A DNA stretch of 64,000 nt from Acidobacteriota bacterium. GTDB taxonomy: Bacteria; Acidobacteriota; Thermoanaerobaculia; Multivoradales; JAGPDF01. Shown here piece by piece: positions 4,925-60,150 of this stretch. Location: positions 128,006-192,005 of the forward strand of contig JACTMI010000004.1 in assembly GCA_014584695.1 (NCBI GenBank). The letters run 5' to 3'. The notes beneath the pieces were generated by a model, which was given only the letters and a program-made list of their open reading frames with translations, was not told the DNA's origin and made no database searches. Both the position numbers and the translations under genes were made by a program. The first letter of the stretch is position 1, and each line of letters starts with the position of its first letter.

Positions 4925-5095
4925 CGGCTGCATGGAGGCGAGCCGCCACGCGAGCGACCGCGGCGGGCTGAGGCCAGCGGAGCGAGCCGCCAGGCTCGCG
5001 ACCGCGGAAGGGTGAGGCCAGCGGATTCACTCCGCTGGCCGAGGGGAGGGCGCGTGCCCTCCCCTTGCAGACGAACCCCCGCGTGCCCTCCCCTT
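4925..5095. repeat. REP-like dispersed repeat, copy 1 (two tandem GC hairpin units plus two further hairpins)
   Basis: About 100 nt nearly identical to 53.9 kb (agcggagcgagccgccaggctcgcgaccgcgga.gggtgaggccagcggattcactccgctggccgaggggagggcgcgtgccctcccct); hairpins gcgagcc/ggctcgc, ccagcgga/tccgctgg, ggggagggc/gccctcccc. Confidence 0.6.
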
Positions 5096-7090: not shown

Positions 7091-8775
7091 GCGGGCCTCC
7101 GCTCCGCGGCCGACTCCGGCGCGCCCTCGACCGGCGCCGGCTGCCGGACCGGCAGCTCGACCGTGAAGACCGCGCCCGAATCGGGCGGCGAGTCGACGTC
7201 GATGCGCCCGCGGTGACGCTCGACGATGCCGTAGACGATGGCGAGGCCGAGGCCCACGCCGGCGCCTTGCGACTTGGTGGTGAAGAACGGCTCGAAAACG
7301 TGGTCGATGACCTCCGGCGGGATGCCGCGCCCGGTGTCGGAAACCGTCAGGAACAACCGCTCGCGCGTCGTGTCGGTGCGCGCCGCGACGCGCACGCGGC
7401 CGCCCTCGGGGGTGGCTTCGAGCGCGTTGATCAGCAGGGCGAGCAGCGCCTGCTGGATCTGGGACGCGTCGCACTCGACGGGCGGCAGGTCGGCCGCCAG
7501 GACGATCTCGAGCTCGACGCCCGCGAGCTGCGCCTGGTGGCGCAGCAGGAGGACGCATCGCTCGACGATCGGCGCGATCTCGGCGGGCGAGAACAGGGCG
7601 CCGGGAGTGCGCGAGAACAGCAGCAGGTTGCGCACGATCTCGCCGCAGCGCAGGGCCTCGTCCTCGACCAGCTTGAGGATGCGGTCGATGTCCATGCCGG
7701 CGGTGCCGTCGGTCACCGGCGCGCCGGCGGCGAGCGCCTCCTCTCGCCGCCGCCGCAGCAGGCGGGCGTAGGTGGCAATGCCGGCCAGTGGATTGTTGAG
7801 CTCGTGCGCGACGCTCGCCGAGAGCTTGCCGAGCGAGGCCATCTTCTCGACCCGCAGCAGGTGCTGGTGGGTGAGCTCGAGCTCGCGGGTCTTCTCCTCG
7901 ACCCGCTCCTCGAGCCGGTGCCCCCAGGAGGCGAGCTCGGCGTGGGCGGCGCCGAGGTCGGAAGCCATCCGGTTCCAGGCGCGCGCGAGATCTCCCAGCT
8001 CGTCGGCGCCGCCGGCCGGCACGCGCGCCGAGAAGTCCCCCTCCGCGAGGCGCGGCGCGGCGGCGGTCAGCGCCCCGACCGGCCGCAGGACCAGCCACCA
8101 GGCGAGCAGGAAGGCGAGGGCGACGACGGCGGCGACGGTCGCCACCAGGCCAGCCAGCAGCTGGCGCTGGGAGTCGGAGAGGGCGGCGTCGACGCGCGTC
8201 AGCGGCAGCTGGACGTCGAGCACGCCGAGCACCGTCTGCTCCGGCGGGTGGGCGTGGCAATCCGCGTTCGAGCAGGCCAGCTCGTTGCGCACGGGCGAGA
8301 TGAGGCCGAGGATCCGGCCCTCCCCGGGCCGGGTGAAGATGCGCGTCCGGCCCGGCCCGAGCGGGCTCTCGAGCGCGGTGTCGCCGGCGTGACAGGAGAC
8401 GCACTGCTCGGCCGAGAGGTCGACCTGGTGACCGATCTCCGAGCTTTCGCTGGAGTGGGTGATCCGCCCCTGCTTGTCGAACACCCGCACGCGGTCGATC
8501 GTCTCCTGCGCCGCGAGCGTGCCGACGATGCGCGACAGCTCGGCCGTGTCGTTGCGCAGCATCGAATCGCGGGTCGCGCCACGGATGACCTCGACCACGG
8601 TGTCGGCCTGCGACTCGACGACGCGCGTGAGCTGCCGGCGTTGGGAGGCGAGATTCCACGCCCCGGCGGTGACCAGAATGGCGGCGGCGCCCGCCGACAG
8701 GACGAGCGCCAGCCGCAGGGCGAGGCGAAAAGGCGGTGACCGCCGCGAGGCGGCCACCGCCGGGCGCTGGGTCAT
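7087..8775 (-). CDS. sensor histidine kinase with two TM helices and a periplasmic domain carrying CxxCH
   Basis: HisKA H-box [13 protein letters not shown], HATPase G-boxes ([18 protein letters not shown]), HAMP-like linker; periplasmic CVSCH and CSNADCH motifs between the two TM segments. Confidence 0.85.
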
Positions 8776-27905: not shown

Positions 27906-30056
27906 CTACGGCCCGGCCTCGATGGTCAGGGGGGTGGTCGTGCCGGCGACTCGCCGACCGTCTCCATCGACGACCTGGAGCTCCAGCAGGTAGGTGCCCG
28001 GAGCCGCGGCCGTCGCCGCCAGTGTGCCCCGCCACTTCGCCATGCCCGGCGAGCCGGCCGGCGACGTCTCGATCTCGACTCGCGGCGGCGGCGCCGGGCC
28101 GCCGCGCGGCTCGCGCAGCGCGGCCTCGACCCGCAACGGGCCCGCCGGCAGATCGTAGCCCACCAGCAGGAAGGGCGCCGGCGAGCCGTCCGCTCGAATG
28201 CGCGGCGCGGCCTGCGGAACGAACGGCTCGCCCGCGACCACGAACGGATAGACGAGGCTGTCGGCCTCTCCCTCCGGCGGCGACTCGCGCGCCAGGAGCC
28301 ACCGCCCGCCCAGATCGAAGAGGAAGGGCGGCAGGAGCCGCGGCGCGCGCGCCGAAGCCGCCGGCACGTGGAGCGGGAGCGTGGCGAGGCCGGTGCGCCC
28401 GCCGCGCCCCTCGCGGGCGAGCGCGACGAGGCGATAGTCGCCCCCGGCCAGGTCGAGGTGGCCGTAGTACTTGAAGCCGTCGAGACCGCGCGCGGCGGCG
28501 GTCGGGGAGTCGTCGAGCGCCACCCGCCGCGCGAGGAAGTCGCGCATCTCGCCGCTGCTGTGGATCGCGTAGACGTAGATCTCGAGCGGCAGCGGTCCCG
28601 CCGGGACCTCGGGAAAGAGCCCCCGGGATCCGATCTCGAGGACCACGGGGACGTAAGCCTCTTCCCCGCCGGAGCGAAACGGCGCGGCGAGCGCACGGAC
28701 CTCGAGCGCCGCGGCGGGACGCTCGAGCGCGATCGTCTCGGCGGCGAGCAGAGCCTTCTCGAAGGGGTGGAGCTCGGGGAACGGCCGCGGCGCGTAGAAG
28801 CCCGCGCGGTGGGCGACGCGCAGGCCGCGGCCACCGACGACGCGCACCGCCAGCGGATGGAAGGCGCCGTCGTCCGCGATGCCGGTGGCCGCGACGGTCA
28901 GCAGATAGGCCTGCGAGGAGCGGCGCAGGGCTCGTCCGATGGCGGCGTGCAAGTCGTTGCCCTCGTCGACCAGCGAGCCGCCGCTGCCGTGGGCCAGGTG
29001 GAAGAGCGCTTCGGTGCCGCGAGCCGAGGACAGCCCATCGGCGCCGCCGCGCAGCCCTCCGACGTCGACCGCGTGCGCGACGCAGTCGGCGCGCCCGAGC
29101 TCGGTCAAGAGGCGCTCGACCTCGCCTTGGAGCTGGGTGTTGCCGAACCGCTCGTCGGAGTCGACCTGCCAGATCTGTCCGGTCTGGAGCTCCAGGTTGC
29201 CGAGCGCGTCCTCCTCGCCCCGCGGATTGGACCGCCCGAGCAGCAGGGCGCTGTCGAAACCCTCCGAGAAGAGCAGGATCTGCTTGCGCCCGGGCACCTC
29301 GGCCAGCCGACGCGAGAGCCAGGCCAGCTCGCGCGCCCAGCCGATGACCCGGGTGCGCTCGTACTGCCGGTGCTCGCGTGCCGCGGCGTGCGCGAGGATG
29401 CGCGAGCTCTCGAGGTCGATCTGCTCGATCTCGGCGCGCAGGTCGCCGCTGCCGGAGACGGCGACGCTGCCCGCGACCGCCGGGCTCGAGAGGCCTGGCA
29501 GCAGGAAGCCGAGGGGATCGAGGTGGGCCGTCGCGGCGCGTCGGTGCTCGAAGCTGGAGCTGTCGAGGGCGCGCGCGACCTGCGCCCGGTCGGGGGTGAA
29601 GGTGAGGAGCAGTCGGGGTCCGAGATCGGCCGAGAAAGTGGCGACTCCCACCAGGTCGGTCGGATGGAGCTCGTGCAGCACGACCTCCCGCGCCGCCTGG
29701 CGGGCGCGGGCGAGCGCGCCGGGGTTCGAGAAGGTGAGATCGAAGAGCAGCAGCACGTGCCGGCGGTAGCGCGGAGGCGGCCCCGCGGCCTCGGGTCGGG
29801 CGAGCGCGGACGCGGCCGGCCGGGCGCCGAAGTGGAGCGCCTCGAAGCCGACGATCTCGAGGCGGCGCCGGCCACGCCGGACCTCGAATCGATCGGCGGT
29901 GAGGCCCGCGACCGGCTCGCCGTCGCGGTCCAGCACCTCGACGGCCACCTCGACCTCGAGCACGTCGAGACGCCCCTCGAAGCGCGGCGCCACGGGCTGC
30001 GTGGCGGCGAGACCGGCCGCGGCCAGCGCACCCGCGAGCGCGACGAGGCTCTTCAC
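27906..30056 (-). CDS. secreted VWA-domain protein, VWFA-related Acidobacterial-domain family (paralog A)
   Basis: Signal peptide MKSLVALAGALAAAGLAA; VWA core (HVLLLFDLTFSN..., ILLFSEGFDS, GNTQLQGEVERLL..ADCVAHAVDVGGL); GTGA overlap with the upstream transglutaminase-TPR gene. Confidence 0.75.
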   Translation of the reverse strand: MKSLVALAGALAAAGLAATQPVAPRFEGRLDVLEVEVAVEVLDRDGEPVAGLTADRFEVRRGRRRLEIVGFEALHFGARPAASALARPEAAGPPPRYRRHVLLLFDLTFSNPGALARARQAAREVVLHELHPTDLVGVATFSADLGPRLLLTFTPDRAQVARALDSSSFEHRRAATAHLDPLGFLLPGLSSPAVAGSVAVSGSGDLRAEIEQIDLESSRILAHAAAREHRQYERTRVIGWARELAWLSRRLAEVPGRKQILLFSEGFDSALLLGRSNPRGEEDALGNLELQTGQIWQVDSDERFGNTQLQGEVERLLTELGRADCVAHAVDVGGLRGGADGLSSARGTEALFHLAHGSGGSLVDEGNDLHAAIGRALRRSSQAYLLTVAATGIADDGAFHPLAVRVVGGRGLRVAHRAGFYAPRPFPELHPFEKALLAAETIALERPAAALEVRALAAPFRSGGEEAYVPVVLEIGSRGLFPEVPAGPLPLEIYVYAIHSSGEMRDFLARRVALDDSPTAAARGLDGFKYYGHLDLAGGDYRLVALAREGRGGRTGLATLPLHVPAASARAPRLLPPFLFDLGGRWLLARESPPEGEADSLVYPFVVAGEPFVPQAAPRIRADGSPAPFLLVGYDLPAGPLRVEAALREPRGGPAPPPRVEIETSPAGSPGMAKWRGTLAATAAAPGTYLLELQVVDGDGRRVAGTTTPLTIEAGP

Positions 30057-31165
30057 CGCGCCTCCGGCGGCAGCCGCGTCGCGAGCCGCAGCGCTTCCGG
30101 ATGCGTCGCGTCCAGACGCAGCGCCCGGGACAGATGGTGCCGCGCGCGGGACAGGTCACCGACCGCGAGGTAGGTCTGCGCCAGGGCGACGTGGACCTCG
30201 GGCAGCTCGGAGTCTTGCCGCAGCGCCTCGGTCAGATACTCGAGCGCTCGCAGGGGCTCGTCCTGGGCGAGGGCGAGCTGTCCGCGGTAGACGAAGAAAT
30301 AGGGATTCGACACGCGCAGGGCTTCGAGCCGGTCGAGCACCCGGGAGGCCTCGTCGAGGCGGCCCGCGCGCTGGTGGAGCCGCGCCAGGTTGTTGAGCAG
30401 CGCCGGCTCCTCCGGGGCGAGCGCCAGACCGGTGGCGTAGGCCGCTCCGGCGCCCGCTTCGTCCCCACGCCGAGCCCGCGCCACCCCGAGGTTGTTCCAG
30501 GCGCGAGCGAAACCGGGCGCCACCCGGACCGCGGTCGCGAGCAGCTCGGCCGCGCGCTCGGCGTCGTCGGCGAGCAGCGCTTCCGCGGCGAGATTGTTGT
30601 AGAAGTGGGCGACCGCCGTGACGTCGTCGATCGGCCGGAAGCTCCGGTAGGGCTTCGGTCGGTACGGCAGGAAGTCGTAGGTTCGCAGCGTCCCGTCGAC
30701 GCGGAGCCCCGCGACCACGTGCCCCTGGCTCACCACCATGCCGTGAGAGTGGCTCCAGCTCTGCGCGTCCTCGACCTCGACGTAGAAGGCGGCGAGCCGG
30801 TCGGCGCGCGCCAGTCCAACGAAGAGATTGACGAACGAGAGGCAGTTGCCCTGCCGGCTCCGGTAGGCGCCGGCGGCGTCGCGGGTGGGGCGGAGCCGGT
30901 ACTCGAGCCGCAGGTCGCCGAAGACGAAGTCGGCAAGGGCCGCGGCGCGCCGGACCTCGCTGGCCGAGCCGGTGCGGCGGCGTTCGGCCAGCGCCGCCAG
31001 CTCGGCGTCCAACTCGAAGGGGACGAGGACCTCCAGGGCCTGGTCGCCCATCCGGTCGACTAGCGTCGCACGGAGGTGGCGGGCCGAATCGAAGGGCTGG
31101 TAGGTGGCGCAGCCGGCCAGGCTGAGGGCCAGCAACCAGCCCCGCGGTCGATCAGCCCGGCGCAT
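30053..31165 (-). CDS. lipoprotein with a transglutaminase-like cysteine-protease core and C-terminal TPR repeats
   Basis: Lipobox LALSLAGC; GNCLSFVNLFVGLARA (TGase Cys motif) with downstream His/Asp; at least four TPR units (AWNNLGVARARRGDEAGAGAAYATGLALAP...). Confidence 0.7.
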   Translation of the reverse strand: MRRADRPRGWLLALSLAGCATYQPFDSARHLRATLVDRMGDQALEVLVPFELDAELAALAERRRTGSASEVRRAAALADFVFGDLRLEYRLRPTRDAAGAYRSRQGNCLSFVNLFVGLARADRLAAFYVEVEDAQSWSHSHGMVVSQGHVVAGLRVDGTLRTYDFLPYRPKPYRSFRPIDDVTAVAHFYNNLAAEALLADDAERAAELLATAVRVAPGFARAWNNLGVARARRGDEAGAGAAYATGLALAPEEPALLNNLARLHQRAGRLDEASRVLDRLEALRVSNPYFFVYRGQLALAQDEPLRALEYLTEALRQDSELPEVHVALAQTYLAVGDLSRARHHLSRALRLDATHPEALRLATRLPPEAR

Positions 31166-31509
31166 TCCGCAGTCTCTCTCTCGCGGTGCCGGCCCGCAAG
31201 ATGCCGCGGCCAGCGAAGTCTCGGACCGGCCCCGGCCAGGGTCGGTCCGACGCAGCAATCACCGCGCTCGTAAGGGGGGAGCGGGCGCTCGCGAGCCGCA
31301 GCTACCAGCCCGCGACCGGCCCAAGTCGGCCCCGAGGAATGACGATTGGGCACTGATTTGGCCCCACTTGCCCCAGCAGCGTTTCGGGTTAAACTGGCCG
31401 GACCAGTCGAAGCCGGAAGGAGGTGACGGAACCCGCGCGGTGGCTCTCGCGCGGGCGGGGTGGAGAAGCCCTTAGCTGAACGGACTTCATCAATGACCCG
31501 AGAAGGAGG

Positions 31510-34323
31510 TTGAGAAAGATGACAGGACGGAGTGTTTGGAGTCGCTGCGCGGCGATCGTCGGAGTGATCCTGATGATCGGCAGCGCCCCCCTGCTCGGCC
31601 AGGCTCAGGCCGGCACCATCTTCGGCACGACCCAGGACGAACAGGGTGCCGCCCTGCCGGGTGTGACCGTGACCATCCGGGGCGGTGGCGCGCCGGTCGT
31701 GGTCGTTTCGGATGCGCAAGGCGCCTTCCGCGCGGTGGGTCTGCCCCCGGGCAGCTACCACCTGAGCGCGGCGCTCGAGGGCTTCGCCACCGTCGAGTAC
31801 CCGAGCGTCAACGTCGCCGTCGGCCGCAACACGACCCTCGAAGTGCGGATGCAGGCCGCGGTCGAGGAGACGATCACGGTCACGGCCGAGTCGCCGCTGC
31901 TCGACTCGCGGCGCATCACCGCGGGCGCCCAGGTCAGCCAGGTGGAGCTCGAGAAGATCCCGAGCGCGCGCGATCCCTGGGTGATCCTGCAGACCACGCC
32001 GGGCGTGCTCGTCGACCGGGTCAACGTCGGCGGCAACGAATCGGGCCAGCAGTCGACCTACACCGGCCCGGGTGACGACGGCACCAACTCGACCTGGTCG
32101 ATCGACGGCGTCGAGATCACGGACATCGGCGCCATCGGCTCGTCGCCTTCGTACTACGACTTCGACGCCTTCGAGGAGATGCAGGTGACGAGGCGGCAGC
32201 GACGCGACGTTGCGCACCGGCGGCGTCGGCCTGAACATGGTGACCAAGCGCGGCACCAACCAGTGGCGCGGCACGGCCCGCTACCTCTACTCGGACGACT
32301 CCTGGCAGTCGAACCTCAACTTCGACCGCGGTGAGCTGGCGCCCGGCCAGCCCGCCTTCGCCCAGGGCAACCGGATCGTCGAGGTCACCGACTGGGGCGG
32401 CGACATCGGTGGCCCGATCGTCAAGGACAAGCTGTGGTTCTGGGCCTCTTACGGCGAGAACGACATCCGCCTGCTGACGGTGCTCGACGTGCCGGACAAC
32501 ACGCTGCTCAGATCAAGATCGGGCGCAACGCCTCGCCGACGCGGCCGCCGGAGACGACCTGGAACCAGGGCGGCTATGGCGGCGGGCCGACGGTGCTCAA
32601 GGTCGAGGACACCCACATCTTCTCCTCGGCCTTCTTCCTCTCGGCGATGTACTCGGAGACCAACGGCAGCTTCCAGCTCGCCCCCCAGGGCGGCTTCACG
32701 CCGACCCAGAACAAAGCGGCCCTGGACGAGGACTTCATCTGGCGCAACACCTTCCTCTTCTACGGCAGCAAGCGGCCGCAGGACCAGGCGAAGGTCGACG
32801 GGTCCTACTTCTTCGGCACCGGCAACCTGAGCCACGAGCTGAAGTTCGGCACCAGCTACCGCGAGGGTGAGATCCGCTCGCTGTCCCGCTGGCCGGGCGG
32901 CGGCATCGACCTCAACTTCTACGAGCAGTACGGCTACGCCTACAACATCGTTCAGCTGACCAACGACGGCATCACCAACTACAACGTCCGCTACACCAAC
33001 GCCTACGTCCAGGACACCATCACGACCGGTAACCTGACGCTCAACGTTGGCGCGCGCTACGACAAGCAGGACGGCAAGCAGCTGGCGGGTGTCTCGGCGG
33101 CGAATCCGACTTTCCCGGCGCTGATTCCGCAGCGGACATTCGGGGGTCAGGACATCGGCTTCGACTGGACCTCGATCAGCCCGCGTCTGGGTCTGACCTA
33201 CAACGTCGGCGGCGCCAACCGGACGCTCCTGCGGGCGAGCTACTCCCGCTTCGCCGAGCAGTTGTCGGGCCTGGCGGCGTCGTGGACCTACCCGCTCTAC
33301 CCGTACACTTCGGTCTACACCTACTACGACGACCGCAACGGCGACGGCCACTCGCAGGCCAACGAGATCATCCCGGGAGTGCTGTTCAACTCGGGCAACT
33401 ACAATCCGGCGAACCCGTCGCAGATCGTCATCTCCTCGGCCGTCGACTCCAACCTCGACCCGCCGATGACCGACGAGCTGCTGCTCGCCTTCGAGCACGC
33501 CGTGCGGCCGGAGTTCGTGGTCGGCGTGAACTTCACCTACCGGCTGACCACGGACATCCTGGAGAACGAGCGGTTGGTCTTCGACGGTGACGCCACGTCG
33601 CCGGCGAACATCAACAGCCTCGGCCGCGTCCATCGGCGCAGCGACTACGTGCAGACCGGCACTGTCAACGTGACGCTGCCCAACGGGCAGGCGAGGTCGA
33701 TCCCGGTCTACGGGCTGCGGCCCGGAGTCACGACGCGCAACAACAACTCGCTCGGCGTCCAGTCCGGTGGCTTCCTGACCAACGGCGACCGCGAGCAGGA
33801 GTACATGGGCGTCTCCTTCACGTTCAACAAGCGGCTGTCGAACCGCTGGATGGCGCGCGGCAACTTCACCTGGTCGGACTGGGAGTGGAAGGTCCCAGAG
33901 AGCGAGCGGGAGGATCCGAACCAGTCCTTCGGCGGCGGCAACCGGGACGGCGACGCGGTGGTGACCTGCGTCGGCACCGGTTCGGGGGCCAAGGCCGGGG
34001 TGTGCATCAACAGCAGCTGGTCGTACAGCCTCAACTGGGTGCGAGCGCCGCAGGGTGGTATCAGCGGCGTCTACAACTTGATGGTCACCGACCGGCCGGA
34101 TCAGTTCCGGGCCGACGACATCCACGTCGTCGACCTGCGAGTCGAGAAGGAGTTCACTTTCGACCGCGTCGGGCTGACCGTCGGCGCGGACGTGTTCAAC
34201 GTCTTCAACGAGGGCACCGTGCTGCAGCGCGAGCTGCGGCTCGGCCAGGCGCAGGGCAACTTCGTTCGCGAGGTGCTCTCGCCCCGGGTGTTCCGACTCG
34301 GCGCCCGGTTGAGCTTCAACTGA
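31510..34323 (+). pseudogene. TonB-dependent-receptor-like outer-membrane protein (CarboxypepD_reg + plug + beta-barrel), copy 1, disrupted by two compensating frameshifts
   Basis: GAAGGAGG RBS and signal peptide; frame switches +1 at about 32191 (after FEEMQVT) and back at about 32510 (after LDVPDNTLL); C-terminus ARLSFN; three track ORFs (31510.., 32210.., 32434..) tile the gene. Confidence 0.6.
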
Positions 34324-34688
34324 TCGCCGCCTGACGCCTGATCGCGCGCCGCCGGACCTTCGGGACCGGCGGCGCGCGGTGTTTTCGGCCGCCTCCCGCT
34401 CCGCCGGGATGGATCGCCCCACCGCGCCTGCCTGAACGACGAGGGACCAATCGCGCTTGACGGGGGCGAGGCGGCGGTCCGCGGACCGGGAGTCCCACTC
34501 GTCGCCCTCCGAGCGCTGGCTCCCGCCTTGCTCCCGGAGCTCCTCACACGCGAACCCGTGAAGCCACGCCGGCCCCAGCGGGCGGCCGGAGAGAGCGCCA
34601 GCAAAGAGCTCAGGGGCCAACGGACCGCGCGACCGCCCGCCGCATGGCGCGGCCGGGCGAACCGCTCGCAGCGGGAAGGAGCATCGGC

Positions 34689-37532
34689 ATGAGAAGCAGG
34701 ATCTCGTGGTACCGAAGCGCCGCGATCCTCGGCGCGGCCTGGCTGGTCGGCGCGGCGGCAGCCGTCGGCCAGGTGCAGTCGGGCAATGTCTACGGCACCG
34801 TCAGGGACGCCGCCGGCGCCCCTCTTCCGGGCGTCGTCGTCACCATGACCGGCGGCGGCGCTCCCGCCGTCCAGGTCTCGGACGCGCAGGGGACGTTCCG
34901 CGTTCTCGGCCTCAGCCCCGGGACCTATCAGCTCGTCGCCGCGCTGGACGGCTTCGCCAACGTCGAGTACCCGAGCGTGACCGTCGCCGTCGGCCGCAAC
35001 ACTTCGCTCGAGATCACGATGCAGTCGGCGATCGAGGAGACGATCACGGTCACGGCCGAGTCGCCGCTGCTCGATTCGCGGCGCATCACCGCGGGCGCCC
35101 AGGTCAGCCAGGTGGAGCTCGAGAAGATCCCGAGCGCGCGCGATCCCTGGGTGATCCTGCAAAGCACGCCGGGCGTGCTCGTCGACCGGGTCAACGTCGG
35201 CGGCAACGAATCGGGCCAGCAGTCGACCTACACCGGCCCCGGCGACACCGGCGCCAACGCCGCCTGGTCGATCGACGGCGTCGAGATCACGGACATCGGC
35301 GCCATCGGCTCGTCGCCTTCGTACTACGACTTCGACGCCTTCGAGGAGATGCAGGTGACGAGCTGCGCACCGGCGGCGTCGGGATGAACATGGTGACCAA
35401 GCGCGGCACCAACCAGTGGCGCGGCTCGGCCCGGCTGCTGCGCGCCGAAGACTCCTGGCAGTCGGACCTCGACTTCGACCGCGGCGACCTGGCGCCGAAC
35501 CAGCCCGCCTTCGCCCAGGGCAACCGGATCGTCAGCGTCGAGGACTACGGCGCCGAGCTCGGCGGCCCGATCGTCAAGGACAAGCTGTGGTTCTGGGCCT
35601 CTTACGGCGAGAACGACATCCGCCTGCTGACGGTGCTCGACGTGCCGGACAACACGCTGCTCGGCGACCTTCTTCTACTCGAACAACGAGAAGATCAAGA
35701 TCGGGCGCAACGCCTCGCCGACGCGGCCGCCGGAAACGACTTGGAATCAGGGCGGTTGGGGCGGCGGTCCGACGGTCGTCAAGGTCGAGGACACGCAGGT
35801 CTTCTCCTCGAGCTTCTTCGCCTCGGTGATGTACTCCGAATCCAATGGCAGCTTCCAGTTGACGCCGCAGGGCGGCACCTCGCCGACCCAGAACAAGGCG
35901 TCGCTGGACGAGAACTTCGTGTGGGGAAACACCTTCCTGTTCTATGGCAGCAAGCGGCCGCAGACCCAAGCGAAGGCCGACGGGTCCTACTTCTTCGGCA
36001 CCGGCAACCTGAGCCACGAGCTGAAGTTCGGCACCAGCTACCGCGAGGGCGAGATCCGGTCGCTGACCCGCTGGCCGGGCGGCGGCATCGACCTGAACTT
36101 CTACGTCGCCAACTACGGCTACGCCTACAACATCGTCCAGCTGACCAACGATGGCATCTGGAACTACGACGTCGAGTACACGAACGCCTACGTCCAGGAC
36201 ACCATCACGACCGGCAACCTGACCGTGAACTTCGGCGCCCGCTACGACCTCCAGGGCGGAACGCAGCGGGCCGGAGTCGCGGCGGCGAATCCGACTTTTC
36301 CGGCGCTCATTCCGGAGCGTCGCTTCGCGGGCCAGGACATCGGCTTCGAGTGGTCGACGATCAGCCCGCGCCTGGGTCTGACCTACAACGTCGCCGGCGG
36401 CAACCGGACGCTGCTGCGGGCGAGCTATGCCCGCTTCGCCGATCAGCTCTCCGGCCTGGCCGCCGGCTGGACCTACCCCCTCTATCCCTACACTTCGGTC
36501 TACACCTACTACGACGACCGCAACGGCGACGGCCATTCACAGGGCAGCGAGATCATCCCCGACGTGCTGTTCAACTCCGGCAACTACGACCCGGCCAACC
36601 CGTCCCTGATCCTGTTCTCTTCGGCCGTCGACCCGGGACTCGACGCGCCGGTGACCGACGAGCTCCTGTTCGCGGTCGAGCATGCCCTCCTGCCGGAGTT
36701 CGTGGTCGGGCTCAACCTGACTTACCGGCTGTCGACCGACCTGCTGGAGCAGGAGCGCCTGGTCTTCGACGGCGACCCCTACTCGGCGACCAACGTGCGC
36801 AGCGTCGGCCGCGTCCACCGGCGCGACGACTACGTCCAGACCGGCACCGTCACGGTGACGCTGCCGGGCGAGTCGACGCCACGACAGGTGCCGGTCTACG
36901 GACTGCGGCCGGGGGTCGGAACCCGCAACGGCAACGTCCTGGGCGTCCAGCAGGGGGGCTATCTGACCAACGGCGACCGGGAGCAGGAGTACCTGGGAGT
37001 CTCGTTCACGTTCAACAAGCGGCTGTCGAACCGCTGGATGGCGCGCGGCAACTTCACCTGGTCGGACTGGGAGTGGAAAGTGCCGGAGAGCGAGCGGGAG
37101 GATCCGAACCAGCTGTTCGGCGGTGGCAACCGGGACGGCGACGCGGTGGTGACCTGCGTCGGCACCGGTTCGGGGGCCAAGGCCGGGGTGTGCATCAACA
37201 GCAGCTGGTCGTACAGCCTCAACGAGGGCTACGCGATGCCCTATTGGGTTCGCGCGAGCCTAGCGGGCGTCAGTGGCGCCTACTACCTGAACATCACCGA
37301 CCGGCCGGATCAGTTCCGGACCGACGACGTGCACACGCTCGATCTCCGGGTCGAGAAGGAGCTGACGTTCGATCGCTTCGGCCTCACGCTCGGGATCGAC
37401 GCGTTCAACGTCTTCAACTCCGGCACGGTCCTGCAGCGGGAGCTGCGGCTCAATCAGGGACAGGGAGACTGGGTGCGCGAGGTGCTCTCGCCCCGGGTCT
37501 TCCGGGTGGGCGCGCGGCTCAGCTTCAACTAG
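34689..37532 (+). pseudogene. TonB-dependent-receptor-like outer-membrane protein, copy 2 (tandem paralog), disrupted at the same two positions
   Basis: GGAAGGAG RBS and signal peptide MRSRISWYRSAAILGAAWLVGAAAAVGQ; frame switches at about 35361 and about 35668; otherwise collinear with copy 1 with high amino-acid identity. Confidence 0.6.
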
Positions 37533-37647
37533 CGCCCAGCCGGCTGTCGCGGTGAGGAGGGCGCCGCCGGGCCACGGCTCGGCGGCGCCCCGGCTTTCTT
37601 GGGGAGCCGCGGCGCCGGAGTGTAGACTCGCGAGCGAGGAGCCGAGG

Positions 37648-38592
37648 ATGAATTCCACCAACCTGTCGCGTACGGCGGTGGCGCTGCTGCTCGGGCTGGC
37701 GGTGCTCCTGCCGGCCACCGGGACCGCGCAGGACTGGAAAGGGCGTGGCCGCATCCAGGGCGAGGTGACCGACGAGCGAGGAGCGCCCGTCGCCGCGGCC
37801 AGCGTGACGCTGCGTTGGGGCGTGGCGCCCGACCAGGGACCGGCGCCGCTCGCCACCGACAGGAAGGGCAAGTGGTCCTTTCTGGGGCTGGTCGGCGGGG
37901 CCTGGATCGTGCTCGTCGAGGCGCCGGGCTTCGTGCCTCAGGAGGGATCGGTCCAGGTCAACGAATTCGGCGCGGTGCCGCCGATCAAGATGAAGCTGCG
38001 GCCGGCGGAGGCGAGCGCCGCGCCGGTCGATCCCGCAGTCGCGGCGATCGAGGAGGGCAACCGCCTCCTGGGCGAGGGGCGCCACGCGGAGGCGCGGGCC
38101 GCCTACGAGCGCTCGCTCGCCGATCTGCCGGCGGCGAGCCGTCCGGCGGTGATGCGGGCCGTCGCGCGCACCTGGTTCGACGGCGGCGATGCGGCGCGCG
38201 CGATCACCGTGCTCGAAGAGAGCCTGGCGCTCGCGCCGGACGACGCCGAGTCGCTGCGCTTGATCGTCACCCTGCTGGTCGCGGCCGGCCGGGAGGCCGA
38301 CGCCCGCGCCTACATGGCCCGTCTCCCCGCCGGTGCCGAGGTCGACGCCGACACGCTGCTCAACCTGGGCATCGATCTCTACAACCAGAACCGGCTCGAG
38401 GAGGCGCTGGCCGAGTTCGACCGCGTCGTGACGCAGCAGCCGACGCTCCCCGATGCCTATTACTACCGGGGCCTCGCGCGCCTCGGGCTGGGGCGCGGCG
38501 AAGAGGCCAAGGCCGACTTCCAGAAGCTGCTCGACCTCGACCCGAGCCACGCCAAGGCCGAGGATTGCCGACAGTTCCTCTCCTCGCTCTGA
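37648..38592 (+). CDS. secreted protein with an N-terminal CarboxypepD_reg-like domain and C-terminal TPR repeats
   Basis: Signal peptide; GRIQGEVTDERGAPVAAASVTL prealbumin-like unit; TPR-like helices (AYYYRGLARLGLGRGEEAKADFQKLLDLDP). Confidence 0.6.
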   Translation: MNSTNLSRTAVALLLGLAVLLPATGTAQDWKGRGRIQGEVTDERGAPVAAASVTLRWGVAPDQGPAPLATDRKGKWSFLGLVGGAWIVLVEAPGFVPQEGSVQVNEFGAVPPIKMKLRPAEASAAPVDPAVAAIEEGNRLLGEGRHAEARAAYERSLADLPAASRPAVMRAVARTWFDGGDAARAITVLEESLALAPDDAESLRLIVTLLVAAGREADARAYMARLPAGAEVDADTLLNLGIDLYNQNRLEEALAEFDRVVTQQPTLPDAYYYRGLARLGLGRGEEAKADFQKLLDLDPSHAKAEDCRQFLSSL

Positions 38593-38618
38593 CCGCGAGG
38601 CGACGAGGCCGGGGGCGC

Positions 38619-40706
38619 GTGCGTCGCGCAGGCTCTCCGCTGCCGCTCGCCGGTCTGCTCGTCGCGCTCGCGGCCGCCGGTGCTTGTGACTCCGGGCGCG
38701 AGGCGGCGGCGCCGCCACCCCCGGCGGCGCGCCCGGACGTCGTGCTGATCACCGTCGATACGCTGCGCTGGGACGCGGTCGGATTCGCCGGCAACTCGCG
38801 AGTGCGGACGCCGACGCTCGACCGGCTCGCGGTCGCCGGCAGGGTCTTCACCGACGCGCACGCCCACAACGTCGTCACGCTGCCGTCCCACGTCAACATC
38901 CTGACCGGGCTCTATCCCTTCCAGCACGGCGTCCGCGACAACGCCGGCTTCGTGCTCGGCGAGGAGGTTCCGACGCTGGCGACGCTCTTGTCGGCCGCGG
39001 GTTACGCCACCGGGGCCTTCGTCGCGGCCTACCCGCTCGATCGGCGCTACGGACTAGCCCGCGGCTTCGACCTCTACGACGACCGATTCCGCCGCGGCAC
39101 CGACCCGGCCGCCTTCGTCATCGCCGAGCGGCGCGGCGACGAGGTCGTGGCCAATGCGCTCGGCTGGTGGCGCTCGGCGGCCGGACGCCCGCGGTTTCTC
39201 TGGCTCCACCTCTACGATCCCCACGCCGCCTACGAGCCGCCCGAGCCGTTCGCCTCGGAGTATCGCGATCACCCCTATCTCGGCGAGGTTGCGGCGACGG
39301 ACGCCTTCCTGACGCCGTTGCTCGCGCCGCACCTCGACGGCGCCGAACCGCCGGCCCTCGTCCTGTTCACTTCGGACCACGGCGAAGCGCTGGGCGCGCA
39401 CGGCGAGCTGACCCATGGACTGTTCGCTTACGAACCGACGCTCAAGGTTCCGCTCGTCCTCTGGGGTCCGGGCGTCGAGCCCGGGCGCGACGGCCGCGCG
39501 GCGCGCCACGTCGACATCGTCCCCACGGTCCTCGAGGCGCTCGCGCTCGCGCCGCCGGGGCGACTGCCCGGCCACTCGCTCCTCGGACCCCCGGGCGCCG
39601 GGGTCGAGACCTACTTCGAGGCCCTGACCACCGCCCTGCACCGCGGCTGGGCGCCGCTCTTCGGCGTCATCCGCGACGGCGTCAAGGTGGTCGATCTGCC
39701 GGAGCCCGAGCTCTACCGTCTGGTCGAGGATCCCGAGGAGCGAGAAAACCGCTACGGCGCCGAGGCCGCGCTCGCGCGCGAGCTGCTGGCGCGGCGACCG
39801 GCCACCGCGTGGCCGCCGCAGCGGCCGGCGGCGAGCGGCGACGAGGAGGCGGCCCGGCTGCGCAGCCTCGGGTACCTGGTGGGCTCGGCGCCGCTGCGCG
39901 AGGCGTTCGGTCCCGAGGACGACCCGAAGCGGTTGGTCGGTCTCGACCGCCAGATCCACCTGGCGATCGATCACTACTCACGCGGCAGGTTCGCCGAGGC
40001 GGCGCGCCTCGGCGCCGCGATCGCGCGCGATCGCCCGGGGATGGCCGACGGCTACACGATGGGCGCGCTCGCGCTGCGTCAGCTGGAGCGCCACGAGGAG
40101 GCGATCGCGCTGCTCGCGACCGGCCGCGAGCGGACCGGCGGCGACGAGTCGGTGGTGCGCGCCCTCGGGCTCGCGCTCGCCGAGACCGGTCGCGCCGGCC
40201 GGGCGGTGGAGCTGCTTTCCCCCCTCGAGACGACGGGCCAACCCGAGACGCTGCGCGCCCTGGCGACCGCGCTCGCCGACGCGGGCGAGCCCGAGCGGGC
40301 GCGGCGGGTCCTCGACCGCGCGCTGCGGGAGCTGCCGGACGACCCGCGGGCGATCGAGCTCGCTGGCGTCATCGCCCTGCGCGACGGCCGTCCCGAGGAG
40401 GCGCGTCGTCACCTCGAACGGGCGCTCGAGCTCAACGACGAGCTGGCGACCGCCTGGAACTCGCTCGGCGTCGCGCTCTATCCGATCGAGGGTCCACGCG
40501 CCGCTCTGGGTGCCTGGCAGCGGGCGGTCGAGCTCGATCCGCGGCAGTTCGACGCGCTGTTCAACCTCGGGCTCGTGGCGGCGAGCGTCGGCGAACGAGA
40601 GCTGGCGCGGCGCGCGCTCGAGCAGTTCCTGCGCACCGCCCCGCCGGAACGCTACGCGCCAGACTTCGCGCGCGCCCGCGGACTGCTCGTCGAGGTGGCG
40701 GGATGA
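38619..40706 (+). CDS. lipoprotein: sulfatase-fold (alkaline-phosphatase superfamily) domain with Thr at the nucleophile position, plus C-terminal TPR domain (paralog 1)
   Basis: GTG start; lipobox-like LAAAGAC; VLITVDTLRWD metal-site motif; TLPSHVNILTGLYP in place of the C/SxPxR formylglycine motif; TSDHGE..HG; TPR repeats after about residue 430. Confidence 0.7.
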   Translation: MRRAGSPLPLAGLLVALAAAGACDSGREAAAPPPPAARPDVVLITVDTLRWDAVGFAGNSRVRTPTLDRLAVAGRVFTDAHAHNVVTLPSHVNILTGLYPFQHGVRDNAGFVLGEEVPTLATLLSAAGYATGAFVAAYPLDRRYGLARGFDLYDDRFRRGTDPAAFVIAERRGDEVVANALGWWRSAAGRPRFLWLHLYDPHAAYEPPEPFASEYRDHPYLGEVAATDAFLTPLLAPHLDGAEPPALVLFTSDHGEALGAHGELTHGLFAYEPTLKVPLVLWGPGVEPGRDGRAARHVDIVPTVLEALALAPPGRLPGHSLLGPPGAGVETYFEALTTALHRGWAPLFGVIRDGVKVVDLPEPELYRLVEDPEERENRYGAEAALARELLARRPATAWPPQRPAASGDEEAARLRSLGYLVGSAPLREAFGPEDDPKRLVGLDRQIHLAIDHYSRGRFAEAARLGAAIARDRPGMADGYTMGALALRQLERHEEAIALLATGRERTGGDESVVRALGLALAETGRAGRAVELLSPLETTGQPETLRALATALADAGEPERARRVLDRALRELPDDPRAIELAGVIALRDGRPEEARRHLERALELNDELATAWNSLGVALYPIEGPRAALGAWQRAVELDPRQFDALFNLGLVAASVGERELARRALEQFLRTAPPERYAPDFARARGLLVEVAG

Positions 40707-53913: not shown

Positions 53914-54051
53914 GGAGCGAGCCGCCAGGCTCGCGACCGCGGAGGAGTGAGACTGAAGCCAGCGGAGCGAGCCGCCAGGCTCGCGACCGCGGAGGGGTGA
54001 GGCCAGCGGATTCACTCCGCTGGCCGAGGGGAGGGCGCGTGCCCTCCCCTG
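53914..54051. repeat. REP-like dispersed repeat, copy 2
   Basis: Same hairpin architecture as 4925-5095; generates look-alike spurious antisense ORFs (53084..54061 - and 4723..5103 - share GEGTRPPLGQRSESAGLT.PRSRAWRLAPLAS). Confidence 0.6.
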
Positions 54052-54117: not shown

Positions 54118-54193
54118 GGGCCGCTAGCTCAATTGGTAGAGCAGCAGACTCTTAATCTGCGGGTTGTAGGTTCGATTCCTACGCGGCTCACCA
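54118..54193 (+). tRNA. tRNA-Lys (anticodon CTT), CCA encoded
   Basis: 76 nt; clover-leaf folds by hand: acceptor gggccgc/gcggctc, anticodon stem gcaga/tctgc, loop cTCTTaa, T-loop ttcgatt. Confidence 0.9.
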
Positions 54194-54266
54194 ACCCTCC
54201 CCCCTCTCGAAGCCCCTCCGGCAGGCGCCGGGGCGATGCAAGCTCCCGCCGCGCGGGGCGCGATCG

Positions 54267-54357
<91 letters not shown>

Positions 54358-54380
54358 ACCTACTCCGAGGTCCTCCCCTG

Positions 54381-55649
54381 ATGAGCGTCGTCCTCGCCGT
54401 CGAAGAGATCGGCCCCTGCCGCAAGCAGCTGAAGATCGAGGTTCCGGGTCCGGCCGTCGAGGCCGAAACCGATCGGGTCACCCGGGAGTTCGGCAAGAAG
54501 GCCAAGCTGCCGGGCTTCCGCAAGGGCAAGGTGCCGGAGTCCCTGGTCCGGCGCCACTTCGGACCCGACATCCGGCAGGAGGTGCTCGAGCGCCTGGTGC
54601 CGCGCTACTGGCGGCAGGCGGCGGCGGAGAAGGGGATCGAACCGCTGATGCCGCCCGAAGTGCGCGATGTCCATTTCCACGAGGGCGAGCCCATCACCTT
54701 CTCGGCCACGGTCGAGGTCCGGCCCGAGATCGAGCTGCGCAACTACCAGGACTTCGCCCTGCCCACCCCGCCGGTCGAGCCGACCGCCGAGGAGATCGCC
54801 GGTGCCTTGGCCGATTTGCGCCGCAACCACGCCGACTGGGAGCCGGCGGGTCGGGGGGCGGCCACCGGGGACCGGGTGCGCATCGAAATCGCCGAGCTCG
54901 GCCCCGACGGGCCCGGAGCGGCCAACGCCGCCGAGCTCGAGGTCGGCAATGCGCGCTACTGGGACGAGCTGTCGGCCGCCGTCACCGGGCTCGCCGCCGG
55001 CCAGAACGGCAGCTTCACCCGCCGCGAAGGCGACGGCGAGGCGGCGAGCGAGAAGAGCTACCAGGTGCGCATCGTCGACGTCCTGGCGCCGAAGCTGCCC
55101 GAGCTCGACGACGAGCTGGCGCGCCGTTTCGGGCGCTACCAGTCGGCCGCGGAGCTCGAGGCCGACGTCGTCCGCCGAATCCGGTCCGCCAAGGAGCAAG
55201 GGGCGCGCCAGCAGCGCGAGACCGCGCTGCTCGACCAGTTGACGGAGCGCCACCCGATCGAGCTGCCCGAGGGCGTCGTGCGCCACGAGGTCGAAGAGCT
55301 GCTGCGCGACTACGCCGAAGGGCTGTCGCGCCAGGGCGTCGACCTCGAGCGGGCGCAGATCGACTGGCAGAAGATGGGCGAGGAGGCGCGCCCGCACGCC
55401 GAGCGCCGGGTCAAGGCGCGGCTGCTGCTCGACGCCATCGCCGACCGGGAGCAGGTCGAGGTCACCGAGCCGGAGTTCGAGCACTCGCTGGCGCTCTTGG
55501 CGCGAACTCAGGGGGTGGCGACCCACGCCCTGCGCCACAAGCTCGACGAGACCGGACAGCTGGCGGGGCTTCGGGGCAGAATGAGGCGCGAGAAGCTGCT
55601 GCGCCGGCTGCTGGGGGAGGGCCCGCCGGGAGCCGGCGAGGCGAAGTGA
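54381..55649 (+). CDS. tig: trigger factor
   Basis: 422 aa; N-terminal ribosome-binding region with the GFRKGKVP signature; conserved position upstream of clpP-clpX. Confidence 0.9.
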
Positions 55650-55668
55650 CCGCAGAGGAGAGAGAAGC

Positions 55669-56256
55669 ATGCTGATTCCGATGGTCGTCGAGCAAACCAA
55701 CCGGGGCGAGCGGGCCTACGACATCTACTCCCGCCTGCTCAAGGACAACATCATCTTCCTCGGCCGGCCGATCGACGACGAGGTGGCGAGCCTGGTGATC
55801 GCGCAGATGCTCTTCCTGGAGGCGGAAAACCCGGAGCGCGACATCCATCTCTACATCAACTCGCCGGGCGGCTCGGTCACCGCCGGCCTCGCCGTCTACG
55901 ACACCATGCAGTACATCAAGCCGGACGTCGCGACGCTCTGCGTCGGGCAGGCCGCCTCCATGGCCGCGGTGCTGCTCGCCTCCGGCCGAACCGGCAAGCG
56001 GACCGTGCTGCCCAACAGCCGGGTGCTGATCCACCAGCCCTGGACCTCCGGCATGGGGGGGCAGGCCACCGACATCGAGATCCACGCCCGGGAGCTCTTG
56101 AAGCTGCGGGACAAGATCGACGAGATCCTGGCCTTTCACACCGGCAAGCCCAAGGACCAGGTCCACTTGGACACCGAGCGCGACAAGATCCTCTCGGCCG
56201 AGGAGGCGGTCGCCTACGGCCTGGTCGACCAGGTGATGGAACGCCGCAAGTCCTGA
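55669..56256 (+). CDS. clpP: ATP-dependent Clp protease proteolytic subunit
   Basis: Ser-His-Asp triad context ([15 protein letters not shown]); 195 aa. Confidence 0.95.
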
Positions 56257-56476
56257 GCCTCCCGTCTGTTAGAATTCGAGGGCGAGGTCGGACGGCGGCG
56301 GGAGCCGAGCGGGCGGCGCCGCGCCCGGGGGTATTGCACCCCGGCGGCGGAATAGGCACGCTCGCGGCGGGCGTTCTCCGCTGTGAGGGCCGGGGGTCCA
56401 ATCGGGCTGGGCGCCGGGCACGAGCCCGCGAGGCAACCGGCCGGCCGGGCGGCGCGTAGGGAAGGATGGAGGAGAG

Positions 56477-57715
<1,239 letters not shown>

Positions 57716-57717
57716 GC

Positions 57718-60150
<2,433 letters not shown>

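What the first reader, a model, noticed from the sequence alone, without database searches (positions are those of the whole stretch)
31510..37532. Tandem TonB-receptor-like OMP paralogs, each with the same internal ~310-nt segment thrown out of frame by compensating frameshifts
Copy 1 (31510-34323) reads in frame up to FEEMQVT, shifts +1 at about 32191 and reads GGSDATLRTGGVGLNMVTKRGTNQWRG...LDVPDNTLL, then returns to the original frame at about 32510 (IKIGRNASPTRPPETTWNQGG...). Copy 2 (34689-37532) does the same at about 35361 and about 35668. The two shift sites coincide with the only length differences between the copies. Those are a 19-nt versus 2-nt difference at the first site and a 29-nt indel at the second. 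The out-of-frame segments themselves are nearly identical between copies. Three explanations are possible. Both paralogs may be pseudogenes. There may have been gene conversion or patchy recombination between the copies. Or the assembly may have been collapsed or polished across paralogs. Two independent, exactly homologous, self-compensating lesions are hard to explain by random sequencing error alone.
Basis: seen in the sequence. Interest (0 to 1): 0.65.

Follow-up and report, generated by a model that had tools for sequence, protein, structure and literature searches.

The report
Assembly-made deletions in tandem receptor genes
Two neighbouring outer-membrane receptor genes look broken by matching frameshifts, but the breaks almost certainly come from how the genome was assembled at three stretches the two genes share, so this is an error to correct, not biology.

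Summary
Both tandem TonB-dependent receptor paralogs leave their frame for about 300 nt and then return.

The lesions are six deletions relative to an intact gene. Copy 1 lacks 2, 76 and 87 nt. Copy 2 lacks 19, 47 and 66 nt.

- **Intact copy 1 exists elsewhere.** Seven independent public assemblies carry copy 1 as an intact 989-codon gene. One of them has zero mismatches to the window outside the three deletions.
- **The missing pieces are real gene sequence.** They encode residues conserved across the family, and 76 of the 78 related loci checked read in a single frame over the part they hold.
- **The breakpoints follow a k-mer rule.** Every deletion starts exactly 99 nt after a base that distinguishes the two copies. 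These three runs are the only exact repeats of 99 nt or more in the whole 64 kb. A simulated de Bruijn graph with k=100 ends its copy-specific unitigs at all six left breakpoints; k=79, 99, 119 and 127 do not.

This is the signature of a short-read k-mer assembler or scaffolder mis-joining contigs across repeats. It is not pseudogenisation or programmed frameshifting.

The biology underneath is ordinary: tandem receptor paralogs with tracts homogenised by gene conversion. No independent sequence of copy 2 was found, and the right-hand breakpoints remain unexplained.

The parts
31519..34323 (+). Copy 1 of the TonB-dependent receptor as assembled. Domains: CarboxypepD_reg, Plug, OMP_b-brl_4 barrel. 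The true gene is 165 nt longer (989 codons).
   Evidence: tblastn of the intact P0001. L001 is identical apart from three deletions. Pfam domains on P0001. RBS GGAGG followed by ATG 31519, read from the sequence.
34689..37532 (+). Copy 2, the tandem paralog, as assembled. It lacks 132 nt relative to the intact architecture.
32093..32191 (+). 99-nt run identical to copy 2 35263-35361. Its last base is the left breakpoint of site 1, where copy 1 lacks 2 nt (CG).
   Evidence: A k=100 unitig ends at 32191.
32192..32509 (+). Copy 1 segment read out of frame (+1). It encodes GGSDATLRTGG...DNTLL and matches the intact gene perfectly.
32411..32509 (+). 99-nt run identical to copy 2 35564-35662. Its last base is the left breakpoint of site 2, where copy 1 lacks 76 nt encoding ETTNAKVNWQVTEGNAATFFYSNNEK.
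33937..34035 (+). 99-nt run identical to copy 2 37125-37223. Its last base is the left breakpoint of site 3, where copy 1 lacks 87 nt encoding GLYQIAPDRAWGFNVAAALHGREGYARPY. Its placement is ambiguous by 2 nt.
35263..35361 (+). Copy 2 counterpart of the site 1 run. Copy 2 lacks 19 nt after 35361.
35362..35662 (+). Copy 2 segment read out of frame (-1/+2). It encodes LRTGGVGMNMV...DNTLL.
35564..35662 (+). Copy 2 counterpart of the site 2 run. Copy 2 lacks 47 nt after 35662.
37125..37223 (+). Copy 2 counterpart of the site 3 run. Copy 2 lacks 66 nt after 37223, in frame.
31862..32552 (+). Copy 1 side of the main high-identity tract, probably from gene conversion. It pairs with copy 2 35032-35734. 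Identity is 93.7% and third-position divergence 8%, against 27-47% in the flanks.
34344..34388 (+). GC-rich hairpin (GCGCGCCGCCGG...CCGGCGGCGCGC) followed by GTGTTTTCGG, downstream of the copy 1 stop. It looks like an intrinsic terminator. Four of the seven independent contigs end just before it and one ends at its T tail.
   Evidence: Read from the sequence. Contig ends. The consensus scan did not call it.

Best explanation
The locus holds two real, tandem, almost certainly intact TonB-dependent receptor paralogs in a Thermoanaerobaculia-like (Acidobacteriota) metagenome-assembled genome. Gene conversion has homogenised three tracts, so the copies share exactly three identical runs of at least 99 nt.

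**Shown.** A short-read de Bruijn graph with k of about 99-100 cannot tell the copies apart inside those runs. Each copy-specific contig therefore ends 99 nt after the last copy-distinguishing base.

**Inferred.** A repeat-resolution or scaffolding step then joined each left contig, kept whole, to the next copy-specific contig after trimming it by a wrong amount. This removed 2/76/87 nt from copy 1 and 19/47/66 nt from copy 2. I do not know which assembler was used or what trimming rule it applied.

The first two deletions in each copy happen to sum to a multiple of 3. That is why the stretch between them reads out of frame and the frame then recovers. The frameshifts, and the four fragment proteins deposited from this contig, are artefacts.
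For: 1. **Independent intact copy 1.** Logan contig L001 (SRR14793171) matches window 31426-34340 with 0 mismatches except three deletions in the window, and it encodes an intact 989-aa protein.
2. **A second strain agrees.** Six further contigs from six other runs (L002-L007, about 98% identity) are intact at the same three places. L002 continues through the spacer to 34662, so the tandem context is shared.
3. **The missing pieces are real gene sequence.** They restore residues conserved in all eight aligned homologs. 76 of the 78 related loci show no frame break over the part they hold; most read residues about 1-988 in one frame and a few are cut by contig ends. With the missing pieces, the Plug domain passes Pfam's threshold (24.9 against 23.9). 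Without them it scores 17.7.
4. **Copy 1 is under purifying selection.** Between the two strains, 42 codons differ synonymously and 9 non-synonymously.
5. **The breakpoints follow a k-mer rule.** The identical run to the left of every deletion is exactly 99 nt. All other shared runs are 86 nt or shorter. These are the only exact repeats of 99 nt or more in the 64 kb.
6. **Simulation.** A k=100 de Bruijn graph built on the repaired locus ends its copy-specific unitigs at 32191, 32509, 34035, 35361, 35662 and 37223, which are all six left breakpoints. At k=99 the ends fall one base earlier. k=79, 119 and 127 do not match.
7. **The lesions are local.** No other gene in the window shows a clear stop-less frame switch.
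8. **Published precedent.** Local assembly errors that corrupt protein-coding genes in MAGs are documented, and suspected to be especially prominent in IDBA-UD assemblies (PMC7111523).
Against: - No raw reads could be inspected.
- No independent sequence of copy 2 exists in the searched collections. Its intactness is inferred only from the shared k-mer signature.
- The right-hand breakpoints obey no rule I could find, and all six errors are deletions, never duplications.
- The lengths 2+76, 19+47, 87 and 66 are all multiples of 3. That is a pattern selection could also produce.
- The assembler used for this contig is unknown.
Confidence: 0.93

Rival explanations
1. Both paralogs are genuine pseudogenes in this particular strain. 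Real deletions occurred at three homologous hotspots in each copy. The intact alleles in other assemblies belong to sister strains.
For: - The lesions are present in the deposited NCBI contig, which yields fragment proteins P0122, P0123, P0161 and P0002.
- The net in-frame lengths could hint at selection.
- A 4-nt microhomology (GAGA) flanks the 76-nt deletion.
- No independent copy 2 sequence is available for comparison.
Against: - Real deletions have no reason to begin exactly 99 nt after a paralog-distinguishing base at all three sites in both copies. Only three positions in about 2.9 kb have that property.
- A contig with 0 mismatches to copy 1 over 2,915 nt is intact.
- Each copy would carry three inactivating lesions without a single substitution elsewhere.
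- Copy 1 is under purifying selection.
Confidence: 0.04
2. Gene conversion or patchy recombination between the copies itself produced the indels, through unequal or misaligned conversion tracts.
For: The identity profile between the copies is clearly a mosaic, with third-position divergence of 5-8% in tracts against 27-47% outside. All three lesion sites lie inside such tracts.
Against: - Conversion would copy one allele onto the other. Here the two copies carry different deletions at each site, and neither matches the intact allele.
- Conversion does not explain the exact 99-nt spacing.
- The copy 1 side of the tracts is confirmed intact by independent assemblies.
Confidence: 0.02
3. The architecture is functional. 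Programmed ribosomal frameshifting or another recoding mechanism reads through the two shift sites.
For: The two shifts compensate each other in both copies.
Against: - None of the related loci shows the paired compensating shifts. 76 of 78 show no frame break at all. The two exceptions are single breaks in long-read MAGs, at other positions.
- The junctions delete conserved residues instead of merely changing frame.
- The shift directions differ between the copies.
- The third lesion removes a conserved barrel segment.
Confidence: 0.005

Closest known systems
Local assembly errors at intra-genomic repeats in short-read metagenome-assembled genomes, as described by Chen et al. 2020, Genome Res 30:315 (PMC7111523)
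   Same: The consensus sequence at a repeat-bounded join would lack read support. The error corrupts protein-coding genes, and the fragments have propagated into public protein databases. The lesions sit only where paralogs share runs of at least k nucleotides.
   Different: Here the k value can be read straight off the sequence, as 99-nt runs. The same error hit three sites in both members of a tandem pair, which mimics compensating frameshifts. The assembler and its trimming rule are not identified.
TonB-dependent receptors of the CarboxypepD_reg-Plug-barrel type (PF13620, PF07715, PF25183), abundant in Acidobacteriota and Thermoanaerobaculia
   Same: Same domain order. 50-61% identity to hundreds of full-length homologs of about 980-1050 aa. 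Tandem pairs or triples with spacers of a few hundred nt in at least 10 of 78 related loci.
   Different: Nothing of biological note. The substrate is unknown, and no NCBIfam model matches.
Inter-paralog gene conversion in tandem duplicates
   Same: Mosaic of tracts with 5-8% synonymous-site divergence inside a background of 27-47%.
   Different: It is the precondition for the artefact, not the cause of the lesions.

Membership tests
k-mer (de Bruijn) assembly or scaffolding artefact at repeats | Breakpoints lie at a fixed, k-defined distance from the nearest repeat-distinguishing variant | tested here: met
   All six left breakpoints lie exactly 99 nt after a copy-distinguishing base. k=100 unitig ends coincide with all six. 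At k=99 they fall one base earlier. k=79, 119 and 127 do not match.
k-mer (de Bruijn) assembly or scaffolding artefact at repeats | Lesions occur at every repeat of at least k nucleotides, and only there | tested here: met
   The three runs are the only exact repeats of 99 nt or more in the 64 kb, and all three are damaged in both copies. No clear frame break elsewhere.
k-mer (de Bruijn) assembly or scaffolding artefact at repeats | Independent assemblies of the same sequence lack the lesion | tested here: met
   Met for copy 1: L001 (0 mismatches) and L002-L007 (about 98% identity) are intact. Not testable for copy 2, because no independent sequence was found.
k-mer (de Bruijn) assembly or scaffolding artefact at repeats | No read perfectly spans the junction | not testable with these tools
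TonB-dependent receptor (CarboxypepD_reg-Plug-barrel) | CarboxypepD_reg domain, Plug domain and outer-membrane beta-barrel, in that order | tested here: met
   Intact P0001: PF13620 1.9e-16, PF07715 24.9 bits (cut-off 23.9), PF25183 2.4e-31. In the window's own conceptual translation of copy 2, Plug falls below its cut-off at 17.7 bits.
TonB-dependent receptor (CarboxypepD_reg-Plug-barrel) | TonB box and a demonstrated substrate | not tested
   Not examined. No NCBIfam equivalog matches.
Pseudogene | Disrupting lesions that are real in the genome, with relaxed constraint | tested here: not met
   The lesions carry an assembler signature. Copy 1 shows 42 synonymous against 9 non-synonymous codon differences between strains. 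Differences between the paralogs are biased to third positions in every segment.
Programmed ribosomal frameshift or recoding | The shift is conserved in orthologs and no residues are lost at the site | tested here: not met
   Orthologs read in a single frame. The junctions remove conserved residues.

The most novel reading that the evidence does not exclude
The deletions are real in this strain. Both tandem paralogs would have been inactivated by deletions at the same three conversion tracts, with net in-frame lengths. That would imply a recombination-driven deletion hotspot, and the 99-nt spacing would be a coincidence.
Probability: 0.03. Interest if true: 0.4.

Novelty: not a real feature. 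Interest (0 to 1): 0.07.

Why it matters
Biologically it does not matter much. The underlying locus is an ordinary tandem pair of TonB-dependent receptors with gene-conversion tracts.

Practically it is a clean worked example of an assembly error:
- A k-mer assembler can produce homologous, self-compensating "frameshifts" in paralogs.
- The error can be diagnosed from sequence alone, because identical runs of length k-1 end at the breakpoints.
- It has already seeded four fragment proteins into public databases.

The record should be corrected. It should not be read as pseudogenisation or recoding.

Tried and rejected
- **Exact 36-mer search.** A 36-mer from the run left of site 2 found nothing in GTDB genome contigs or JGI metagenome contigs. 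The species is absent from those collections.
- **Window's own contig.** Exact-protein look-ups of the MAG's fragments and of ClpX from the window were not on record. The contig name, which might have revealed the assembler, could not be retrieved.
- **Independent copy 2.** Two protein searches with copy-2-specific queries (C terminus; N terminus to site 2) returned only the MAG's own fragment P0161 and homologs of 71% identity or less. Copy 2's true sequence at the junctions stays unknown.
- **Run accessions.** A literature search for the SRR accessions found nothing.
- **Global error rate.** I considered a generally error-prone assembly, such as noisy long reads. I rejected it because the frame plot is clean outside the two genes and identity to L001 is 100%.
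- **Conversion in the 98% strain.** 27 of its 56 differences from L001 match the copy 2 base. That is roughly what lineage-specific mutation on the L001 branch would give, so it is not evidence of conversion.
- **Right-hand breakpoints.** I tried to fit them to k-mer rules using unitig starts and trims of 81/56/108 and 98/27/87 nt. No pattern emerged.
- **Consensus scans.** Scans of both spacers found no promoter or terminator, although a terminator-like hairpin is visible by eye at 34344-34388.
Full report
**1. The observation**

The window holds two tandem + strand genes of one family.
- Copy 1: the ORF tool starts it at TTG 31510, but GGAGG followed by ATG 31519 is the likely start. It ends at 34323.
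- Copy 2 runs from 34689 to 37532.

- Copy 1 reads in phase 1 up to ...FEEMQVT, in phase 2 across 32192-32509, and in phase 1 again from 32510.
- Copy 2 reads in phase 0, then phase 2 across 35362-35662, then phase 0.
- So copy 1 shifts +1 and copy 2 shifts -1. The topology is the same but the shift is not.

A GC3 frame plot of all 64 kb finds stop-less frame switches only in these two genes. One further ORF (about 38716-40706) was flagged; I took it as noise and did not check it.

The conceptual protein has CarboxypepD_reg, Plug and OMP_b-brl_4 domains. It is a TonB-dependent receptor of the type abundant in Thermoanaerobaculia and Acidobacteriota.

**2. Comparison with intact relatives**

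A protein search returned hundreds of full-length homologs of about 980-1050 aa at 50-61% identity. It also returned one 989-aa protein, P0001, at 78% identity to a copy-2-based query.

Alignment shows that both window copies lack conserved residues at the two shift sites.
- Site 1: T in copy 1, TGGSDA in copy 2.
- Site 2: ETTNAKVNWQVTEGNAATFFYSNNEK in copy 1, ETTNAKVNWQVTEGNA in copy 2.
The strongly conserved barrel segment GLYQIAPDRAWGFNVAAALHGR(EGYARPY) is missing from both copies.

**3. An independent, intact copy of copy 1**

P0001 is encoded on a 3,080-nt Logan contig from run SRR14793171 (L001). Over window 31426-34340 it has 0 mismatches. The only differences are three deletions in the window:
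- 2 nt after 32191;
- 76 nt after 32509;
- 87 nt after 34033-34035.

Measured against the same reference, copy 2 lacks 19, 47 and 66 nt at the homologous places.

Six more contigs from six other runs (L002-L007, about 98% identity) encode the same intact 989-aa architecture. L002 continues through the spacer to window 34662, 27 nt before the copy 2 start, so the tandem context is shared.

Between the two strains, 42 codons differ synonymously and 9 non-synonymously, so the intact gene is under purifying selection. With the missing pieces, the Plug domain passes Pfam's cut-off (24.9 against 23.9 bits). In the window's own translation it scores 17.7.

**4. The decisive pattern**

I listed every identical run of 30 nt or more between the copies. 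The run immediately to the left of each of the three sites is exactly 99 nt:
- 32093-32191 = 35263-35361;
- 32411-32509 = 35564-35662;
- 33937-34035 = 37125-37223.

Every other shared run is 86 nt or shorter. Within the window these are the only exact repeats of 99 nt or more in 64 kb. The first reads as 100 nt only because both copies happen to resume with G.

So every deletion begins exactly 99 nt after a base that distinguishes the copies. A biological deletion has no reason to do that. Only three positions in about 2.9 kb have this property, and all six breakpoints use them.

I repaired the locus and built node-centric de Bruijn graphs.
- At k=100 the copy-specific unitigs end at 32191, 32509, 34035, 35361, 35662 and 37223. 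These are all six left breakpoints.
- At k=99 they end one base earlier. This is equivalent to k=99 with (k+1)-mer edges.
- At k=79, 119 and 127 they do not match.

**5. Mechanism**

*Shown.* The copies share three runs of at least 99 nt. A graph with k of about 99-100 must break exactly where the window's sequence breaks.

*Inferred.* A repeat-resolution or scaffolding step joined each left contig, kept whole, to the next copy-specific contig after removing too much of its start. The result is deletions of 2-87 nt.

From memory, not tested: IDBA-UD (maximum k of 100) trims by an overlap estimated from paired ends when it scaffolds. MEGAHIT and SPAdes are also commonly run with k=99.

Chen et al. 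2020 describe such local assembly errors in MAGs. They suspect these are especially prominent in IDBA-UD assemblies and note that they propagate incorrect protein-coding sequences into databases (PMC7111523). Here four fragment proteins from the 192,129-bp NCBI contig are already in the protein collection: P0122, P0123, P0161 and P0002.

**6. What is real**

- *Tandem paralogs are normal for this family.* At least 10 of 78 related loci carry two or three copies. 76 of the 78 show no frame break, and most read residues about 1-988 in a single frame. The two exceptions are single breaks in long-read MAGs.
- *The copies are a mosaic.* Third-position divergence is 8%, 5% and 6.5% in three tracts (L001 437-1205, 1449-1560 and 2470-2766), against 27-47% elsewhere. 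This is the expected mark of inter-paralog gene conversion. It explains why long identical runs exist, but not the lesions.

**7. Rivals**

- *Real pseudogenes in this strain.* This needs six deletions to sit by chance at k-defined positions, in a sequence otherwise identical to an intact allele. I give it about 4%.
- *Conversion-generated indels.* This fails because the two copies carry different deletions and neither equals the intact allele.
- *Programmed frameshifting.* This fails because orthologs read in a single frame and conserved residues are lost at the junctions.

**8. Loose ends**

- The right-hand breakpoints fit no k-mer rule, and all six errors are deletions.
- The lengths 2+76, 19+47, 87 and 66 are all multiples of 3. 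I treat it as coincidence.
- No independent copy 2 sequence exists in the searched collections.
- The seven Logan k=31 contigs run through copy 1 without breaking at the many runs of 31 nt or more shared with copy 2. Their ends cluster: 5' ends at 31389-31426, five of them at 31412/31413; 3' ends just before, or at the T tail of, a terminator-like hairpin at 34344-34388. Copy 2 may be rare in those samples, or the runs may be transcriptomes. I could not check this.

**9. Verdict**

This is not a real biological feature, interest is low, and the record needs curation.

Noticed in passing
window 4981-5065 and 53966-54050: A repeated element of about 85 nt on the same strand with 1 mismatch (exact 56-mer 5010-5065 = 53995-54050). 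It folds into three consecutive GC-rich hairpins (MFE -67.8 kcal/mol, z = -5.8). Both copies lie just downstream of + strand ORFs, and the second is about 70 nt upstream of tRNA-Lys. No Rfam match. It looks REP-like or terminator-like.
   Followed up: partly
window 54118-60150: tRNA-Lys(CTT) and tRNA-Leu(TAG), followed by trigger factor (54381-55649), a further ORF that I did not identify (about 55585-56256, possibly clpP from its position), ClpX (56477-57715) and Lon (to 60150).
   Followed up: no
window 34344-34388: A strong GC hairpin followed by GTGTTTTCGG, 20 nt after the copy 1 stop. It looks like an intrinsic terminator but the consensus scan missed it. Several independent contigs end at it.
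   Followed up: partly
L001-L007 (Logan contigs of SRR14793171 and SRR26349683/684/693/702/703/716): All seven contigs are gene-sized (3.08-3.44 kb). Their 5' ends fall at window 31389-31426, five of them at 31412/31413. They pass through every run of 31 nt or more shared with copy 2 without breaking. This suggests that copy 2 is rare or absent there, or that these are transcript-derived assemblies.
   Followed up: no
L062 about 6522; L081 about 8127-8208: Two homologous receptors in long-read 'MFD' MAGs each show a single frame break. Indel errors seem a likely cause but this was not tested; they are unrelated to the pattern here.
   Followed up: no
window 30053-31258 (-), 37645-38592 (+), 38616-40706 (+): The flanking genes are a transglutaminase-core plus TPR protein, a CarboxypepD_reg plus TPR protein, and a sulfatase plus TPR protein. 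The receptor pair thus sits among TPR-rich envelope or secreted proteins.
   Followed up: partly
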